From IMG/VR virus record IMGVR_UViG_3300013902_000158, positions 1-5,613 of that record: 5,613 nucleotides of DNA; one strand, given 5' to 3'. Below, piece by piece: positions 1-5,613 of the stretch; positions within the stretch are counted from its first letter, which is position 1, and each line of letters opens with the position of its first letter. Made by a program: the position numbers and the translations under genes. Under the pieces are notes generated by a model. That model saw only the letters and a list, made by a program, of their open reading frames with translations, had not been told where the DNA came from and searched no databases. The DNA comes from a virus.

Positions 1-77
1 TTGTTGTTCAGTTATTTTTATACCTGGGTAGTCGCTCCCCAATGGAATTAATACGTCTGGTCCTTTTTGCGGTTCTG
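1..77. repeat. Terminal redundancy copy 1 (identical to 5537-5613)
   Basis: Base-by-base comparison: ttgttgttcagttatttttatacctgggtagtcgctccccaatggaattaatacgtctggtcctttttgcggttctg occurs at both ends of the window. Confidence 0.97.
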
Positions 78-690
78 GTAATGCAGTTGAGAAGTAGTCT
101 GCTTTGCGGTTGATTTGATATGGCTTACCGCCTACAGTCCAGTTGCCGTCTGGGTCGTATATAATGTCATCATCGCCGGTTAACGGTGCGAATGGTTCTT
201 CGATATTTTGGTCACGCCAGATTTGGTCACAAATCCAGTTGTAAGCACGTAATTTTAACGCGCTTGCTTTGAATTCCGCTTGTCCTGTTGGCCAGCCAAA
301 ATGGTCCAGTACTGAGCCGTTTTTGATTGGTTTTCCAGTTGGTATGCTAACTTTTGGTACTTTGTATGCAGTTGGTGACACCCATGCGCTTTCTGTGTTT
401 TCACCCATCAGGTTGTTCCAGTGGTCCCAGATTTGGAAGTGTGGTACATAACACCACATATATTCAATCCAACCGCGTGCGATTGTCATATATCGTGATG
501 TATTCAGACGCGCCAGAATAGATGTTGTGATTTTCCAAGTGCTCCCCGGGTTGATTTGTATCGTTGCGAATGCTGGAATAACGTCACCTGTGTTGCAGGT
601 GTAAATGTGTTCGAATGGTTTTGGTATAAATGAGTTTTTACCGTAGTTTCTTGTTGCTGTTGCAGCCAGGTTTTGTACTTGTTTTGCCAT
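1..690 (-). CDS. VP1: Major capsid protein VP1 (phiX174 F homologue), 5' part: codons 1-230 of a 537-aa protein that continues at 5536 across the circular junction
   Basis: Hand translation from ATG 690-688 runs to base 1 with no stop: MAKQVQNLAATATRNYGKNSFIPKPFEHIYTCNTGDVIPAFATIQINPGSTWKI...EYMWCYVPHFQIWDHWNNLMGEN...LRAYNWICDQIWRDQN...KADYFSTALPEPQKGPDVLIPLGSDYPGIKITEQQ. The blocks VP-x-x-x-W-x-x-W-x-x-x-MGE, RAYN-x-I-x-x-x-x-x-RDQN and DYF-x-x-x-LP-x-PQKG are the conserved microvirus capsid N-terminal blocks as I recall them. GGAGG lies 10 nt upstream of the ATG. The ATG overlaps the TAA of the upstream ORF (TAATG). It is missing from the ORF track because it runs off the window edge. Confidence 0.93.
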   Translation of the reverse strand, partial: MAKQVQNLAATATRNYGKNSFIPKPFEHIYTCNTGDVIPAFATIQINPGSTWKITTSILARLNTSRYMTIARGWIEYMWCYVPHFQIWDHWNNLMGENTESAWVSPTAYKVPKVSIPTGKPIKNGSVLDHFGWPTGQAEFKASALKLRAYNWICDQIWRDQNIEEPFAPLTGDDDIIYDPDGNWTVGGKPYQINRKADYFSTALPEPQKGPDVLIPLGSDYPGIKITEQQ

Positions 691-1533: not shown

Positions 1534-1550
1534 TTTTGTCTCCTTAGTAT

Positions 1551-1612
1551 GGTGCGCCGCGCGCGGGTAGTGCGCCGCCGTTAAGAGCAGGGCGCACGAA
1601 AAAGCCCGCGGC
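1551..1612. promoter_or_regulatory. GC-rich compound hairpin element with three GTGCGCC copies
   Basis: 46 of 62 bases are G+C by my count, in an otherwise AT-rich genome. GTGCGCCGC is directly repeated at 1552-1560 and 1570-1578, and its complement GGCGCAC lies at 1591-1597. The inner stem is 1570-1576/1591-1597 and the outer stem CGCGGG/CCCGCG is 1562-1567/1605-1610. The element lies between the stop of the 93-aa gene (1618) and the SD of the 85-aa gene. Confidence 0.6.
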
Positions 1613-2149: not shown

Positions 2150-2179
2150 GTCAGTAGGGCGATTATTTCGCCCCCTGAC
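2150..2179 (-). promoter_or_regulatory. Stem-loop at the predicted 5' end of the transcript from the 2186-2214 promoter
   Basis: GTCAG-TA-GGGCGA-ttatt-TCGCCC-C-CTGAC forms 5+6 bp stems with a 5-nt loop. No T-run follows on either strand, so it is not a classical terminator. The predicted start site G2179 is the first base of the stem. Confidence 0.55.
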
Positions 2180-2185
2180 AATCGT

Positions 2186-2214
2186 ATTATATCATAAGGC
2201 GCATAATGTATCAA
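2186..2214 (-). promoter_or_regulatory. Near-consensus sigma70 promoter with extended -10, reading into the 71-aa, VP5, J-like, VP1 and VP2 gene string
   Basis: The minus strand reads TTGATA (2214->2209), a 17-nt spacer, TGA (2194->2192) and TATAAT (2191->2186). That is 5/6 at -35, a perfect -10 and a TGn extension. Confidence 0.6.
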
Positions 2215-2264
2215 GGATTATGTTGAGTGCGTCAGCACTGAACATAATCGGCGTTATGCGCCTT
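2196..2264. promoter_or_regulatory. Two inverted dif-like XerC/XerD recombination sites forming a 69-nt imperfect palindrome (putative attP)
   Basis: Minus strand 2264->2237 reads AAGGCGCATAA-CGCCGA-TTATGTTCAGT, the canonical 11-6-11 layout. Plus strand 2196-2228 reads AAGGCGCATAA-TGTATC-AAGGA-TTATGTTGAGT. Both are compared with E. coli dif, GGTGCGCATAA-TGTATA-TTATGTTAAAT, quoted from memory. Stems: 2196-2206/2254-2264 (11 bp), 2216-2224/2241-2249 (9 bp), 2226-2230/2235-2239 (5 bp). Confidence 0.6.
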
Positions 2265-3447
2265 GTGAATCGCCTTTATTTCTGCGCAACAGCGCAAGTT
2301 TTTTTAATTTTGTTTCGTATGTTCTTGTTATATATTCTTCTTCACTTAAATCAGTTTTTTCTAATATTTTTTTCCAATTTATTTCTCCGATTTTGCATTT
2401 CCAATAGTCGTATTCTTCATATTCTTCTTCGTTTTCGCTTCGCCATTTTTTTTCCATCGCTTTTGGTAATTTTGCCAAAAATGTTTTTCCGCGGTTTTTC
2501 ATAATAATACCGCCGTTTTCTTTTATTTTGTCTTTGTTTTTTATCCAGTAAAAATACCCGATAAATCCCAGTGATGATGCACCGATGAATTCTAACTGTT
2601 TTTTTCTTTTCATTTTTTCTATTTCTTCATTGGTTCTGCTTGTTTTTTTTGTACAGTATCTTGCAACGTAAGCGGCTGTTTCAGTGGTTGCGTAACCGAT
2701 TATCACGAATCCTTTACCCCAGATTTTGTTGATTTTTTTTGATGTGTATAACCAATACCCTCGTCTGTCTTTGCTGTAACGTCTTAGGTCTGCTGGTTTG
2801 AAATTCCAAATAACTGCATGATAGTGCGGTCTTTTGGTTTTTGGTCCGTATTCTCCACAGTTCAGGTATCTGATTGGTTTTCGGTTCTTGCGTCGCGCGT
2901 TTTGTCCAAACAGGTCTTCAAGTTCGTTTGAATATATCTCTTCAAGGTTGTTGTTTTCGATTGTTAAATCTATTTCTGATGCTTTTTGTGTATGTTTGTA
3001 CAAATGATATCTTATTTTCTTCCAGAAGCTCTGAATATCAGCGCGGCGCAATTTACGGTCGTGTGGTAGATTGTAATTGTCGTATGTGAATGTGTAGAAT
3101 GTTGCGTTTTTCCACATCTGGTTTTCGCACCATGCTTTGGTTGCCCATTCTTTCGAATGTTCAGTTCTGCATATTTCGCATTTACCGCATCCAACTTGGT
3201 TAAAGTTGAAAAATCCCATGTTGTATAATCTGCGATGTGTCAGGAATTTACTATGTCTTGGATTTTTGTCGTAATATACCCACCATTTACCGGTGCACAT
3301 GTTTATGACGCCTTGTTCCAGAGAACCGTTTCCGAGTGCCAGCAGGTTTTGTTTGTTGAAAATTCGTTTTTTGCACAACCAATCGATGTTATCGAATATT
3401 GCTTGTTTGTTGATGGTGTAGATATAATGACGGTGTTTGCATTGCAT
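2254..3447 (-). CDS. VP4: Replication initiation protein VP4 (phiX174 A-like HUH rolling-circle endonuclease), 397 aa; alternative start at 3300 would give 348 aa
   Basis: Track ORF with the superfamily motifs: the Cys cluster GCGKCEICR, motif 1 ATFYTFTYDN, the HUH motif KRPHYHAVIWNF preceded by RYLNCGEYG, and the double-Tyr catalytic motif AAYVARYCTKK (Y-x-x-x-Y as in phiX174 A). The canonical N-terminus resembles MCTGKWW at 3300. However, the 49 upstream codons use AAC 6 times and AAT never, like the capsid gene (AAC 12, AAT 2 in its first 230 codons), which favours the 3447 start. Confidence 0.9.
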   Translation of the reverse strand: MQCKHRHYIYTINKQAIFDNIDWLCKKRIFNKQNLLALGNGSLEQGVINMCTGKWWVYYDKNPRHSKFLTHRRLYNMGFFNFNQVGCGKCEICRTEHSKEWATKAWCENQMWKNATFYTFTYDNYNLPHDRKLRRADIQSFWKKIRYHLYKHTQKASEIDLTIENNNLEEIYSNELEDLFGQNARRKNRKPIRYLNCGEYGPKTKRPHYHAVIWNFKPADLRRYSKDRRGYWLYTSKKINKIWGKGFVIIGYATTETAAYVARYCTKKTSRTNEEIEKMKRKKQLEFIGASSLGFIGYFYWIKNKDKIKENGGIIMKNRGKTFLAKLPKAMEKKWRSENEEEYEEYDYWKCKIGEINWKKILEKTDLSEEEYITRTYETKLKKLALLRRNKGDSQGA

Positions 3448-3639: not shown

Positions 3640-3756
3640 ATGAATATGAAGCACGGTCCTTTGTATTGGATTCTTACTGTTTTTTGCGGTGTTTGGTGTT
3701 TCTTACTCATTTTTGCTGTTGTCGGTTCTTTAATTACTGCGATTTTTTACATGTAA
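3640..3756 (+). CDS. 38-aa hydrophobic single-helix peptide encoded antisense to the rest of the genome; below the ORF-track cutoff
   Basis: Hand translation gives MNMKHGPLYWILTVFCGVWCFLLIFAVVGSLITAIFYM plus TAA. The SD AGGA (3629-3632) lies 7 nt before the ATG, and there is an in-frame stop at 3628-3630. The ORF lies about 19 nt downstream of the predicted start of the 3586-3614 promoter. It falls in non-coding DNA apart from the last 10 nt, which overlap the end of VP2. Caveat: the T-rich plus strand favours hydrophobic codons. Confidence 0.4.
   Translation: MNMKHGPLYWILTVFCGVWCFLLIFAVVGSLITAIFYM
3671..3722. repeat. Imperfect 23-nt direct repeat with 29-nt period
   Basis: TTCTTACTGTTTTTTGCGGTGTT (3671-3693) aligns with TTCTTACTCATTTTTGCTGTTGT (3700-3722). 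About 18 of 23 positions are identical, including the blocks TTCTTACT and TTTTTGC. Confidence 0.5.
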
Positions 3757-4568
3757 TTGTTGTAGTTGTGGTTTATTACAGGTGCTTTTTTTGTTGCGCC
3801 CGCTGCGAATGGTATGATATTTGCGACCTCGTTGAAGGTTAATCCCATTGCTTTCATTGCTTGTCCGAATCTTGTGCTATAAAAAGCGTTTTCGATTTCG
3901 GCTTGTTTTTCTCTGTTGAGGTTTTCCATTTTAATTGCCGTCAATTCTGATATCTGTTTCTTTTCTTCGATACTCAGTAGTTCGTATTGTTTTTTGACAT
4001 TTTGGATTTCAGCGTTTTTCTTTTCAGTTTCCGCTTGCAGGTTTTGAGTGTTCGCCTGAGTTTCCGTTGCTTGTGCTGATTTGACTGCTGTATCTGCTGC
4101 AATGTTGGAAATTTCGGCTTTTGATTTGCCGTCAATGTATTTGTTTTCAGAGAATGTTTTCGCCGCCGCCGCGATTGAATTGATGCTGCCGCTTACTGCT
4201 CCGATAGCGTTGCCAACTTTGCTCATGGTGTCTGCTCCTGATGGTTCAGGTGTCATTGTTGCTTGCGCCCCCGGGCCGGTTTGTGCGCCGGTTTGTGCCG
4301 CTGCCGCTGGATTTAGTCCTGCCAGTGCTAAATCTTCTTTTTCTCGTTGATGCGCTGTGTTTGCCATCATTTCTTGCCATTCACGGTTCTTTTGTGCTTC
4401 TTCCGCGTTGGCTTTGTTTGTTTCACGTGTTTGTGCTGCTCCTGTGAATTTGTCCCATGTGTTGCTTATTATGTTTTGACCGCGTTCAGTCAATGCTAGT
4501 GATGTGCCTGCTGTAAATGGTGCTGCTACGTAGCCGACTACATTTCCTAATTCTTTCCAAAAGCCCAT
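3747..4568 (-). CDS. VP2: DNA pilot (minor capsid) protein VP2 (phiX174 H analogue), 273 aa
   Basis: Track ORF with a strong SD (AAAAGGAGTTAAAAA-ATG). The block NREWQEMMANTAHQREKEDLALAGLNPAAA matches the conserved gokushovirus VP2 block as I recall it (SNTA-x-QR-x-x-x-D-x-x-x-AGLNP). It is followed by an Ala/Gly/Gln/Thr-rich linker and a long coiled coil. It lies immediately downstream of VP1. Confidence 0.88.
   Translation of the reverse strand: MGFWKELGNVVGYVAAPFTAGTSLALTERGQNIISNTWDKFTGAAQTRETNKANAEEAQKNREWQEMMANTAHQREKEDLALAGLNPAAAAQTGAQTGPGAQATMTPEPSGADTMSKVGNAIGAVSGSINSIAAAAKTFSENKYIDGKSKAEISNIAADTAVKSAQATETQANTQNLQAETEKKNAEIQNVKKQYELLSIEEKKQISELTAIKMENLNREKQAEIENAFYSTRFGQAMKAMGLTFNEVANIIPFAAGATKKAPVINHNYNNYM
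3749..3792 (+). terminator. Weak intrinsic-terminator-like hairpin plus T7 run just after the 38-aa ORF
   Basis: The TGTAAT/ATTACA stem is 3752-3757/3775-3780, extended by AC/GT (3749-3750/3782-3783) across one mismatch, with a 17-nt loop. It is followed by C and TTTTTTT (3786-3792). The stem is AT-rich and the T-run also encodes Lys-Lys of VP2 on the other strand, so it may be coincidental. Confidence 0.25.
4275..4298. repeat. Perfect 12-nt tandem duplication inside VP2
   Basis: GCCGGTTTGTGC occurs at 4275-4286 and again at 4287-4298. It is in frame and encodes AQTG-AQTG within the low-complexity linker AAAAQTGAQTGPGAQAT. Confidence 0.9.
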
Positions 4569-4612: not shown

Positions 4613-5613
4613 TTAAATACGGTCGATGCCCGGTATGCTGTGCAGTGGAATTGTGTCAGTGATTTCAAATTCAGCCACAAAGTCCACCAACCACTGATTG
4701 GCATTTTCTGATGTAACGAAGATTGTACGGTCAGTGTTGCTTGGATTTTCTTTCATCCATGCATTTGACAGTGTTGGCATTTCTTCGTATTTGTCTGCCA
4801 TGTGTACATAGTCCATGGTTTGTTCATAGTTTGAGCGTATTTGACCAGTAATCAATGACATGTAGTTTTTATATTCTGCTCCGCGCTCTGCGTAACCGAA
4901 TATTGATTTGGTTGCCATTGTTCCGTTTGCGCCGCCAGTTGCCCACAGTTCGTAATCGTAGATTGGTTGGTCACCTAAGCCCGCAAATTCTGGATGCCAG
5001 AAGTCGAACCGGTCTTCTTTCATGTCTTCTTGTGGAATACCGTATTGGTATTTGTGTTCGAAACGGATTGCAACCAAACACATCAGAGTACCTGCGTATT
5101 TGAAACTGAATGTTTCTTGTTCACTGCGGTTGTTTGTGTAACCGAATGCAGTAATTGTGCCCTGTGGAGATGTTGTGTCTGTTGCTGATGTCTGTGTGAC
5201 TTGATTGAATTCGATTGGGAATCTGCCCATATTCAGAATACGTGGACGTCCTAATTCCAGTACGTCAACCTCGACGCCCCAACGCGCCCACAGCATTTCC
5301 GGTGCACGTGTACCGCTGCGTGAATCTCTCTCGTAAATGTGCAGTGTTGTGATACTGTCTCGGATTTGTTGCAGTTTCGGCATTTTAATTTCAAGGTTGA
5401 ATGCTGAATTTTGTGTTTTTGTGGAATCACTGATGTTTTTGTACCATCCGATAGTTCCAATTTCTGATGTACCAGTCGCGCCGCCTGTTTTGGCGTTTCG
5501 TATCATGATTGTTTCGTTCGGGTCAACTTGTGCTTGTTGTTGTTCAGTTATTTTTATACCTGGGTAGTCGCTCCCCAATGGAATTAATACGTCTGGTCCT
5601 TTTTGCGGTTCTG
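4613..5613 (-). CDS. VP1: Major capsid protein VP1, 3' part (307 codons plus stop from 5536 down to 4613; 5537-5613 duplicates codons already counted in 1-77)
   Basis: The track ORF 4613..5578 is in phase with the 1-690 segment: 42 nt from 5578 to 5537 equals 14 codons, and 690 nt equals 230 codons. Its M at 5578 is a TTG (Leu in PLGSDYPG), so it is an ORF-caller artefact. Total length is 230+307 = 537 aa, typical of gokushovirus VP1. Confidence 0.93.
   Translation of the reverse strand, partial: EPQKGPDVLIPLGSDYPGIKITEQQQAQVDPNETIMIRNAKTGGATGTSEIGTIGWYKNISDSTKTQNSAFNLEIKMPKLQQIRDSITTLHIYERDSRSGTRAPEMLWARWGVEVDVLELGRPRILNMGRFPIEFNQVTQTSATDTTSPQGTITAFGYTNNRSEQETFSFKYAGTLMCLVAIRFEHKYQYGIPQEDMKEDRFDFWHPEFAGLGDQPIYDYELWATGGANGTMATKSIFGYAERGAEYKNYMSLITGQIRSNYEQTMDYVHMADKYEEMPTLSNAWMKENPSNTDRTIFVTSENANQWLVDFVAEFEITDTIPLHSIPGIDRI
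5537..5613. repeat. Terminal redundancy copy 2 (identical to 1-77); signature of a circular-contig overlap
   Basis: Same 77-mer as 1-77. Position 1 corresponds to 5537 and position 77 to 5613. Confidence 0.97.

What the first reader, a model, noticed from the sequence alone, without database searches (positions are those of the whole stretch)
2196..2264. Inverted pair of dif-like XerC/XerD sites that folds into a CTXphi-attP-like forked hairpin at the Rep stop codon
Seen in the sequence:
- Plus-strand 2199-2211 (GCGCATAATGTAT) is identical to 13 consecutive bases of E. coli dif (GGTGCGCATAA-TGTATA-TTATGTTAAAT, quoted from memory).
- 2217-2224 (ATTATGTT) matches the next 8 bases of dif, but 5 extra bases (CAAGG, 2212-2216) sit in the central region.
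- On the minus strand, 2264->2237 reads AAGGCGCATAA-CGCCGA-TTATGTTCAGT. This has the canonical 11-6-11 geometry, with the XerC arm at 8/11, the XerD arm at 9/11 and an unrelated central region.
- The two sites are inverted, so either single strand can fold. An 11-bp stem forms the XerC arm, an asymmetric bubble (9 nt against 4 nt) forms the central region, a 9+5 bp stem forms the XerD arm, and the loop is 4 nt.
- The XerC arm also encodes the last Rep codons and the stop (GGC GCA TAA).

Established knowledge: CTXphi ssDNA integrates through such a folded hairpin using host XerCD and no phage integrase. Gokushovirus prophages flanked by dif motifs have also been reported in Enterobacteria.

Inference: this microvirus, which encodes no integrase, is temperate and uses the hairpin as its attP. 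The arm sequences point to a proteobacterial host.
Basis: partly seen in the sequence, partly recalled or inferred. Interest (0 to 1): 0.85.

Follow-up and report, generated by a model that had tools for sequence, protein, structure and literature searches.

The report
CTX-like two-site attachment hairpin in microvirus
This small single-stranded DNA phage carries two inverted copies of the bacterial chromosome-resolution site (dif) that can fold into one hairpin. Related prophages show this is where the phage joins the chromosome of a gut alphaproteobacterium, using the host's own XerC/XerD enzymes much as the cholera-toxin phage does.

Summary
Window 2196-2228 (+) reads AAGGCGCATAA-TGTATCAAGGA-TTATGTTGAGT (site B, 11-nt spacer). 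Window 2264-2237 (-) reads AAGGCGCATAA-CGCCGA-TTATGTTCAGT (site A, 6-nt spacer). No such sites are expected by chance, and both strands fold far better than shuffles.

The window is a circular 5,536-nt microvirus with no integrase. Relatives (Rep 60-96% identical) are prophages in Candidatus Enterousia (Alphaproteobacteria) contigs, always between FtsJ/TlyA and MscL. The host dif there is AAGGCGCATAA-TGTATA-TTATGTATAGT, and its XerC arm matches both window arms 11/11.

Most relatives carry one canonical dif. Eight lineages, including the window, carry the inverted pair. Four complete paired-type prophages share one layout: an intact dif on the left, and both phage sites side by side after Rep. 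That is the product described for CTX-phi. The spacer rules also match CTX.

One twist remains. The prophage layout and the G·T wobble asymmetry (20 versus 2) both place the active fold on the strand complementary to the genes. Simple integration of virion DNA is therefore not shown.

A near-consensus promoter straddles the crossover point and is split by integration.

Verdict: a new variant of a known kind.

The parts
2196..2228 (+). Site B, the attP1-like site. XerC arm 2196-2206 AAGGCGCATAA, 11-nt spacer 2207-2217 TGTATCAAGGA, XerD arm 2218-2228 TTATGTTGAGT. This is the site where the crossover with host dif maps; the inferred XerC cut lies between 2206 and 2207 on the + strand.
   Evidence: Prophage right ends keep this site with its long spacer. 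Homology to L006 ends at 2196. The spacer starts TGT in all 8 lineages, as does the host dif spacer TGTATA.
2229..2236 (.). Tip of the hairpin: a 2-bp stem extension (GC/GC) around a 4-nt loop.
   Evidence: In relatives this stem changes sequence but keeps pairing: AGTGC/GCACT, AGTTGC/GCAACT, AGCCGC/GCGGCT, ACCCCTT/AAGGGGT.
2237..2264 (-). Site A, the attP2-like partner site. XerC arm 2264-2254 AAGGCGCATAA (which also encodes the last Rep codons and the stop), 6-nt spacer 2253-2248 CGCCGA, XerD arm 2247-2237 TTATGTTCAGT. It supplies the complementary strand of the fold. It is not the crossover site.
   Evidence: The first three spacer bases are YGC in 7 of 8 lineages, and their complement pairs with TGT through G·T wobbles. 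The site is kept intact next to site B in all paired-type prophages.
2254..3447 (-). Replication initiator (Rep) gene. Its stop codon (2254-2256) lies inside the XerC arm of site A.
   Evidence: (PF23343, E = 1e-17).
2186..2214 (-). Sigma-70-type promoter that straddles the crossover point. The -35 TTGATA (2214-2209) lies inside the long spacer of site B. After a 17-nt gap comes an extended -10 TG-n-TATAAT (2191-2186) beyond the XerC arm. It reads into the downstream gene block.
   Evidence: 11/12 match with TG. The same arrangement is in the free genome L035. TTGAC is conserved in the long spacer of 7 of 8 lineages. No such promoter is found at either junction of prophage L010. This is pattern-level evidence only.
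2150..2179 (-). Second conserved hairpin, between the promoter and the first downstream gene (ORF 1902-2117). Its function is unknown; a 5'-leader structure or a complementary-strand origin are candidates.
   Evidence: the structure is present in most of 19 genomes examined (window plus 18 relatives), with different sequences, and shows no strand asymmetry.

Best explanation
The 69-nt element is the attachment site of a temperate microvirus that has no integrase and uses the host XerC/XerD dimer-resolution enzymes. In the field's terms it is a CTX-type IMEX site (integrative mobile element exploiting Xer).

Proposed mechanism:
- The two inverted dif-like sites pair within one strand. This gives a forked hairpin with a duplex XerC arm and a duplex XerD arm.
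- The arms are held at a workable distance by the 6-nt strand, while the 11-nt strand bulges out.
- XerC cuts the long-spacer strand between 2206 and 2207 on the window + strand. It also cuts the top strand of the host dif (AAGGCGCATAA^TGTATA-TTATGTATAGT).
- One pair of strands is exchanged. The exchange is stabilised by the shared TGT, and by wobble pairing of the host TGT with the complement of the short spacer.
- Replication or repair then converts the junction into a prophage.

The product has an intact dif on the upstream side. On the Rep side it has the two phage sites as ordinary duplex DNA. Neither is a usable duplex substrate, because one has an 11-12 bp spacer and the other has no spacer homology. 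Integration should therefore be far less reversible than in the single-dif relatives.

The active fold is on the strand complementary to the genes. It most likely forms by cruciform extrusion from the supercoiled replicative form, not from the incoming virion strand.

Integration also splits the promoter that drives the downstream gene block. This may help keep the prophage silent without a repressor.

Shown: the sites, the fold, the prophage layout and the position of the crossover. Inferred: XerC-only catalysis, the need for folding, the cruciform, and the promoter switch.
For: - Sites and fold.
- Relatives are prophages at one conserved locus (LeuRS-FtsJ/TlyA | dif | MscL-shikimate kinase) in Ca. 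Enterousia and related contigs.
- The host-side XerD arm at the left junction is almost always TTATGTATAGT (TTATGTATACT in two), whereas the arm at the right junction varies with the phage.
- Four complete paired-type prophages (L010, L011, L054, L055) all read dif(6-nt TGTATA) | phage genes ... Rep | site A | loop | site B (11-12 nt spacer) | host. Three partial ones agree (L006, L007/L008, L056).
- The break in homology falls exactly at window 2196.
[quoted passage not shown] CTX spacers are 12 and 7 nt (PMC3089051, PMC4246890). Xer duplex sites normally have 6-8 bp spacers (PMC5357621).
- The hairpin is conserved in 8 lineages, with the arms fixed and the spacers and tip stem varying, the latter with compensating changes.
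- Strand asymmetry: the fold of the window + strand is 2.2-4.2 kcal/mol more stable in 8 of 8 lineages. It contains 20 G·T wobbles, against 2 in the opposite strand. A neighbouring conserved hairpin shows no such bias.
- Promoter.
Against: - There is no biochemical or genetic test. XerC/XerD binding, cleavage and the need for site A are all inferred.
- Formal covariation within the arms is weak, because the arms hardly vary. Only 2 pairs show compensatory changes, and shuffles reach the observed score in 62 of 500 trials. The concerted C-to-T change in both XerC arms also tracks the host dif, so it may reflect host matching and not pairing.
- The exchanged strand is the complement of the coding strand. 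In all characterised Microviridae that strand is never free single-stranded DNA (established knowledge). An extra step, a cruciform, must therefore be assumed, and cruciforms with an internal bubble are costly to extrude.
- Free circular genomes with the complete pair exist (the window and L035). Either excision or purely lytic spread must therefore occur, which sits uneasily with strictly irreversible integration.
- A terminus location for the host site could not be shown on the short flanks available.
Confidence: 0.6

Rival explanations
1. Plain duplex integration, as in VGJ-phi or enterogokushovirus EC6098. Only site B, as double-stranded DNA in the replicative form, recombines with host dif. 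Site A and the hairpin play no part in recombination; they would be a leftover or serve another purpose.
For: Thirteen of 14 GenBank relatives and several prophages use a single duplex dif in the same position and orientation as site B. The product layout does not by itself distinguish a duplex crossover from a folded-strand crossover at site B. The replicative form is the only stage at which the relevant strand exists.
Against: In all 8 paired lineages the spacer of site B is 11-12 bp, outside the 6-8 bp range of Xer duplex sites (PMC5357621). The 12-bp attP1 of CTX is reported to be unusable as a duplex (PMC4246890). A long spacer never occurs without the inverted partner in the 27 genomes examined. 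The first three bases of the site A spacer are constrained (YGC), as expected if they pair with TGT. G·T asymmetry and the compensating changes in the tip stem point to selection for folding.
Confidence: 0.17
2. An exact copy of the CTX-phi mechanism. The incoming packaged single strand folds and is integrated directly, before complementary-strand synthesis.
For: The virion strand can also form the hairpin (-21.4 kcal/mol, z = -5.8). The site architecture is CTX-like. Which strand this clade packages has never been determined.
Against: If the packaged strand is the coding strand, as in all studied Microviridae, XerC could cut only the site A strand. The prophage would then carry the hairpin upstream of the gene block and a dif directly after Rep, in the opposite orientation. 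None of the seven paired-type prophage ends shows this. On that strand the wobbles become A·C mismatches. Base composition gives no verdict on the packaged strand: the coding strand is A-rich, but so is that of phiMH2K.
Confidence: 0.1
3. The palindrome is mainly a replication or transcription signal, such as a complementary-strand origin or a Rep terminator, and its likeness to dif is incidental.
For: Microviruses need hairpins for complementary-strand priming (PMC9865509). The element sits in the main intergenic region, right after Rep.
Against: The prophage junctions fall exactly in it. Its XerC arms are 11/11 identical to the host dif. It is not followed by a T-run in the window. Single-site relatives lack the palindrome but keep the dif.
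Confidence: 0.03

Closest known systems
CTX-phi attP(+) of Vibrio cholerae (Inoviridae): attP1 AGTGCGTATTA-TGTGGCGCGGCA-TTATGTTGAGG and attP2 AATGCGTATTA-TACGCCA-TTATGTTACGG (PMC3089051)
   Same: Two inverted dif-like sites. One has a long spacer (12 nt versus 11-12 here) that starts with the TGT shared with host dif. The other has a short spacer without homology, whose complement pairs with TGT by wobble. There is no phage integrase. The prophage ends up with one intact dif plus both phage sites side by side. Even the XerD arm of the long site is 10/11 identical (TTATGTTGAGG versus TTATGTTGAGT).
   Different: The virus family differs (icosahedral Microviridae, not filamentous), and the host is an alphaproteobacterium. 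The sites are 8 nt apart, not about 90 nt, so the hairpin is about 69 nt and not about 150 nt. The cleavable strand is the complement of the coding strand, so the layout relative to the genes is mirrored and the substrate is probably not the virion strand. A promoter is built into the spacer. Nothing has been tested experimentally.
Enterogokushovirus EC6098 and related E. coli gokushovirus prophages (Kirchberger and Ochman 2020, PMC7062461); also the Rhodobacter microvirus Ebor (PMC11980548)
   Same: Microviruses without an integrase that integrate next to host dif through a phage dif-like motif. For EC6098 the dependence on XerC/XerD was shown experimentally. Thirteen of 14 GenBank relatives of the window have this single-motif design.
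   Different: Those phages have a single 28-bp motif, and their integration is freely reversible: EC6098 excises continuously. The window has an inverted pair with an 11-nt spacer. No E. coli genome carries anything similar. The window capsid protein is only about 29% identical to the two gokushovirus reference VP1s tested, Chp2 and phiMH2K.
Bacteroidetes microvirus proviruses BMV4-6 (Krupovic and Forterre 2011, PMC3091885)
   Same: [quoted passage not shown] The idea of a two-site microvirus attP is therefore already in print.
   Different: The hosts are from a different phylum and the viruses from a different group (Alpavirinae). The text passages retrieved here contain no mention of a hairpin, of spacer geometry or of which strand is exchanged.
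VGJ-phi attP (29 bp, duplex, XerC-catalysed, reversible)
   Same: The crossover is on the XerC side, and homology is confined to the XerC side of the spacer. It is the model for the single-site relatives.
   Different: VGJ has a single site with a 7-bp spacer that is usable as a duplex. The window site that carries the homology has an 11-bp spacer.
Integron attC sites (from established knowledge, not tested here)
   Same: A recombination site that is active only as a folded single strand, with strand choice set by unpaired bases. It can form by cruciform extrusion from double-stranded DNA.
   Different: A different recombinase (IntI), different sequences and different biology. It is cited only as a precedent for cruciform-derived substrates.

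Membership tests
CTX-type IMEX attachment site (folded two-site attP that exploits XerCD) | Two dif-like XerC/XerD binding sites in inverted orientation | tested here: met
   for the window. The same pair is present in 7 further lineages.
CTX-type IMEX attachment site (folded two-site attP that exploits XerCD) | Neither site is a usable duplex substrate: one spacer is too long, the other lacks homology to dif | tested here: met
   The spacers are 11-12 nt and 6 nt (CGCCGA against host TGTATA). The 6-8 bp norm comes from PMC5357621. Actual inactivity of the duplex forms was not tested.
CTX-type IMEX attachment site (folded two-site attP that exploits XerCD) | Pairing within one strand gives a forked hairpin with duplex XerC and XerD arms around an unpaired centre | tested here: met
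   Predicted folds, z = -5.8 and -8.1. This is computation only.
CTX-type IMEX attachment site (folded two-site attP that exploits XerCD) | Homology to host dif is limited to the bases next to the XerC cleavage point, and the partner strand pairs by Watson-Crick or wobble pairs | tested here: met
   The long spacer starts TGT in 8 of 8 lineages. The short spacer starts YGC in 7 of 8 lineages, which gives T·G, G-C, T·G pairing. The rule is taken from PMC4246890.
CTX-type IMEX attachment site (folded two-site attP that exploits XerCD) | Integration leaves one functional dif plus the two phage sites adjacent at the other end | tested here: met
   Seen in L010, L011, L054 and L055. Function of the left dif is inferred from its canonical sequence.
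CTX-type IMEX attachment site (folded two-site attP that exploits XerCD) | The substrate is the packaged (+) single strand | tested here: inconclusive
   Layout and wobble asymmetry place the active fold on the complement of the coding strand. The packaged strand of this clade is unknown, and base composition gave no answer. If the coding strand is packaged, as in studied Microviridae, this feature is not met.
CTX-type IMEX attachment site (folded two-site attP that exploits XerCD) | XerC catalysis alone, with the junction resolved by replication, and irreversible integration | not testable with these tools
   This needs catalytic mutants and in vitro assays. A crossover on the XerC side of the spacer is consistent with the junction sequences.
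CTX-type IMEX attachment site (folded two-site attP that exploits XerCD) | No element-encoded recombinase | tested here: met
   Six window proteins scanned against Pfam show only Rep and Phage_ORF5 above threshold. The remaining large ORF is the capsid protein. The capsid and the small ORFs were not scanned separately.
Single-motif dif-exploiting microvirus (EC6098 / VGJ-type) | One 28-29 bp dif-like site with a 6-7 bp spacer that is homologous to the host spacer on the XerC side | tested here: not met
   In the window, the site with spacer homology has an 11-nt spacer, and the 6-nt site has no homology. Close relatives do meet this feature.
Microviridae | Circular genome of about 4-6.5 kb encoding a Phage_F-type capsid protein, a pilot protein, an HUH-type rolling-circle Rep and a scaffold protein | tested here: met
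   77-nt terminal redundancy gives a 5,536-nt circle. Rep matches PF23343. The capsid protein is 64-82% identical to annotated microvirus capsid proteins and about 29% to Chp2 and phiMH2K VP1.

The most novel reading that the evidence does not exclude
The recombination-active hairpin is made by the strand that is not packaged. It would form as a cruciform extruded from the replicative form, or on lagging-strand template DNA in the chromosome. It would also act as a genetic switch: integration splits a strong promoter whose -35 box lies inside the site's spacer. A 5.5-kb phage with neither integrase nor repressor would thereby gain stable, silent lysogeny. A rarer alternative is that this clade packages the strand antisense to its genes, which would be a first for Microviridae.
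Probability: 0.3. Interest if true: 0.8.

Novelty: new variant of a known kind. Interest (0 to 1): 0.62.

Why it matters
- Xer-exploiting integration through a folded two-site attP has so far been worked out only for filamentous phages (CTX-phi, with predictions for CUS-1 and Ypf). For microviruses, only the single-motif, freely reversible mode has been demonstrated.
- This finding shows, with natural integration products, that a clade of gut microviruses has the CTX-type design. It sits next to sister lineages with the simple design, which offers a ready-made natural comparison of reversible and locked lysogeny.
- It assigns a host, the uncultured gut alphaproteobacterium Candidatus Enterousia, to a group of rodent and lemur faecal 'Microviridae sp.' genomes.
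- It raises two testable questions: which strand folds, and whether splitting a promoter substitutes for a repressor.

Tried and rejected
- E. coli genomes: no match to the genome, so the phage is not an enterogokushovirus.
- IMG/VR scan with Rep peptides: nothing found.
- IMG/VR scan with the long-spacer pattern: 15 contigs, none encoding a microvirus capsid or Rep. They are probably filamentous phages with CTX-like sites. Not pursued.
- JGI metagenome scan: only one close relative.
- GC skew of host flanks, to show a terminus location: no sign change on flanks under 10 kb. Inconclusive.
- Base composition, to infer the packaged strand: the coding strand is 41% A and 19% T in the whole clade, but the isolated gokushovirus phiMH2K is similar. 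No verdict.
- Wobble asymmetry of the neighbouring hairpin as an independent strand marker: it has almost no wobbles. It is useful only as a control.
- Formal covariation on the arms: weak, because the arms are nearly invariant.
- XerD-first exchange on the virion strand: rejected, because it predicts that the 11-nt spacer moves to the left junction, and that is not seen.
- L012, where dif follows Rep on the coding strand, was considered as a possible virion-strand product. Its intergenic region looks like that of the single-site phages, and the contig lacks the other end. Left open.

Full report
**What the window is.**
- The first and last 77 bases are identical, so the window is a circular genome of 5,536 nt.
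- All genes lie on the minus strand. They are the major capsid protein (690..1 joined to 5536..4613), the pilot protein (3747-4568), Rep (2254-3447, PF23343), a Phage_ORF5 protein (1618-1899), a scaffold-position ORF (690-1061) and small ORFs.
- The nearest GenBank genomes are unclassified Microviridae from rodent and lemur faeces: the bajarodmic, Dipodfec, Peromfec and Dulem viruses. Their Rep proteins are 60-63% identical to the window's.
- The capsid protein is about 29% identical to the two gokushovirus VP1s compared, Chp2 and phiMH2K.
- No recombinase was found.

**The observation.**
- I call the plus-strand site 'site B'. It reads AAGGCGCATAA-TGTATCAAGGA-TTATGTTGAGT at 2196-2228, an 11-11-11 layout.
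- I call the minus-strand site 'site A'. It reads AAGGCGCATAA-CGCCGA-TTATGTTCAGT at 2264-2237, an 11-6-11 layout.
- The core pattern occurs twice, against 0.00 expected by chance.
- Both strands fold into the described forked hairpin far better than shuffled sequence: -21.4 kcal/mol (z = -5.8) and -25.6 kcal/mol (z = -8.1).
- The Rep stop codon lies inside the XerC arm of site A.

**Relatives are prophages, and they identify the host.**
- Many Rep homologues lie on long bacterial contigs.
- Fetching them showed complete microvirus genomes of 5.1-5.9 kb inserted at one conserved place. That place is between a FtsJ/TlyA-type methyltransferase (with LeuRS beyond it) and MscL-shikimate kinase, followed by RF1 and HisRS.
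- Two such contigs belong to MAGs named Candidatus Enterousia sp., Alphaproteobacteria.
- The sequence next to the FtsJ-side host flank is almost always AAGGCGCATAA-TGTATA-TTATGTATAGT, or a one- to two-base variant. The XerD arm at the other junction varies with the phage. The first sequence is therefore the host dif.
- Its XerC arm is identical (11/11) to both XerC arms of the window, a better match than to E. coli dif (8/11).
- Tandem arrays of two different microviruses occur at this site (L005, L006), as is usual for elements that exploit dif.

**Two designs in one clade.**
- Thirteen of 14 GenBank relatives, and the prophages L003/L004, L005, L009, L053 and L057/L058, carry a single canonical dif (spacer TGTATA). 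It lies about 140 nt after Rep, on the strand opposite the genes. This is the VGJ-phi / enterogokushovirus design, in which both junctions stay recombination-competent (PMC4246890, PMC7062461).
- Eight lineages carry the inverted pair: the window, L006 (Rep 96% identical), L007/L008, L010, L011, L035 (Dulem virus 207), L054 and L055/L056.
- In all eight, the site on the non-coding strand has an 11-12 nt spacer that begins TGT, and the partner has a 6-nt spacer unrelated to TGTATA.
- A long spacer never occurs without the partner.

**Where the crossover is.**
- Four complete paired-type prophages (L010, L011, L054, L055) have the same layout. It reads: host | intact dif with 6-nt spacer and host-type XerD arm | phage genes ... 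Rep | site A | loop | site B with its long spacer and phage-type XerD arm | host.
- The partial ones (L006, L007/L008, L056) agree.
- Window-to-L006 homology (90%) stops exactly at window 2196, the outer end of the site B XerC arm. Beyond that point L006 carries a different microvirus.
- The exchange therefore takes place at site B, on the XerC side of its spacer.
- An XerD-side exchange would move the long spacer to the left junction. An exchange at site A would invert the relationship between phage and dif. Neither is seen.

**Comparison with CTX-phi.**
- The published CTX sites are attP1 AGTGCGTATTA-TGTGGCGCGGCA-TTATGTTGAGG (12-nt spacer) and attP2 AATGCGTATTA-TACGCCA-TTATGTTACGG (7-nt spacer).
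- Neither works as a duplex. Paired within the single strand, they form attP(+).
- Specificity rests on the bases next to the XerC site.
- Each of these features has its counterpart here.
- Xer duplex sites normally have 6-8 bp spacers (PMC5357621). Site B is therefore unlikely to work unfolded.

**Evidence that folding is selected, and on which strand.**
- Across the eight lineages the arms are nearly invariant. The spacers differ, and the stem beyond the XerD arm changes sequence while keeping its pairing.
- Because the arms hardly vary, the formal covariation test is weak: 94.6% of cells are paired, only two pairs show double changes, and shuffles reach the score in 62 of 500 trials.
- Strand asymmetry is more telling. 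The fold of the window + strand, with site B as the top strand, is 2.2-4.2 kcal/mol more stable in all eight lineages. It contains 20 G·T wobbles, against 2 for the coding-sense fold, where the same positions become A·C mismatches.
- Among these wobbles, the TGT of site B pairs with the complement of the YGC that begins the site A spacer. That is the CTX arrangement.
- A neighbouring conserved hairpin shows no strand bias, so the asymmetry is not a general effect of base composition.

**The strand problem.**
- Layout and wobble asymmetry agree that the exchanged, folded strand is the complement of the coding strand.
- In every studied member of Microviridae the packaged strand is the coding strand, and the complementary strand is never free (established knowledge).
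- If that holds here, the substrate cannot be the incoming virion DNA. A hairpin of the coding strand would be cut in site A and would give the opposite layout, which was not observed.
- The simplest way out is a cruciform extruded from the supercoiled replicative form. Integron attC sites provide a precedent (my own knowledge).
- I could not determine the packaged strand. The coding strand is 41% A and 19% T, but phiMH2K is similar.

**A promoter built into the site.**
- On the coding strand, TTGATA (2214-2209), a 17-nt gap and TG-n-TATAAT (2191-2186) match the sigma-70 consensus at 11 of 12 positions.
- The -35 box lies in the extra bases of the long spacer, and the -10 box lies beyond the XerC arm.
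- Dulem virus 207 has the same arrangement.
- TTGAC is present in the long spacer of 7 of 8 lineages.
- Neither junction of prophage L010 has such a promoter in the gene orientation.
- Integration thus separates the -35 box from the -10 box and the downstream genes. This is pattern matching only, but it would explain why the spacer is long and how a phage without a repressor could stay quiet.

**Prior knowledge and novelty.**
- Microvirus prophages flanked by dif motifs are known in Bacteroidetes, Enterobacteria and Rhodobacter (PMC3091885, PMC7062461, PMC11980548).
- Krupovic and Forterre had already remarked that BMV4-6 carry an extra dif-like sequence 'reminiscent of CTX'.
- I found no paper in the searchable library that describes a forked-hairpin attP, its spacer geometry or its integration products in Microviridae, nor any paper linking microviruses to Ca. 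Enterousia.
- I therefore rate the finding a new variant of a known kind.
- On a quick neighbour-joining tree of Rep, without support values, paired and single designs are interleaved. This suggests that the att module is swapped between lineages, perhaps through the tandem arrays.

**Verdict.**
- What remains open is the mechanism: whether the fold is needed, which strand folds and in what form, and whether integration is irreversible.
- Confidence that this is a XerCD/dif attachment site with the crossover at site B is about 0.9. Confidence that it works as a folded CTX-type site is about 0.6.

Noticed in passing
window 2186-2214 (minus strand): A near-consensus sigma-70 promoter (TTGATA, 17 nt, TG-n-TATAAT) straddles the attachment crossover. 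Its -35 box lies inside the long spacer of the dif-like site. The free genome L035 has the same arrangement, and both junctions of prophage L010 lack it.
   Followed up: partly
window 2150-2179: A second hairpin lies between the promoter and the first downstream gene. In coding sense it reads GTCAGGGGGCG...CGCCCTACTGAC and is followed by CTCA. A hairpin occupies this position in most of the 18 relatives examined, with different sequences, and shows no strand bias. Function unknown.
   Followed up: partly
window 1549-1612: A GC-rich island in an AT-rich genome holds three GGCGCAC heptamers: two direct and one inverted. The genome has four in total, against 0.49 expected. The island is conserved at the start of L006. 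It may be a Rep origin or a set of binding repeats.
   Followed up: no
L005 1289-11382; L006 4957 onward: Two different microviruses are integrated in tandem at the same dif. In L006 the second phage starts immediately after the XerC arm of the window-like phage. On a Rep tree, phages with paired sites and with single sites are interleaved, which suggests that the att module is exchanged.
   Followed up: partly
whole window and relatives L001-L040: There is extreme strand skew. The coding strand is 41-44% A and 19-21% T, with 51% A at four-fold degenerate sites. This is the opposite of phiX174 and Chp2 (T-rich) but similar to phiMH2K.
   Followed up: partly
L012 741-768: A relative (Rep 67% identical) in a 'Proteobacteria bacterium' MAG has a canonical dif on the coding strand 80 nt after Rep. 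The host flank is inverted, with the LeuRS side next to Rep. The site orientation is therefore opposite to that of all other relatives. The other end of the prophage is missing from the contig.
   Followed up: no
L015, L017-L021, L023, L025, L027, L028 (IMG/VR): These contigs lack microvirus genes but carry the same XerD arm plus a 10-12 nt spacer plus a XerC arm. Some have an attP2-like partner upstream. They are probably filamentous phages with CTX-type sites.
   Followed up: no
L003 11353-11984: About 630 nt of non-coding DNA lie between the right-hand dif and MscL in some hosts. This may be debris from earlier integrated elements.
   Followed up: no
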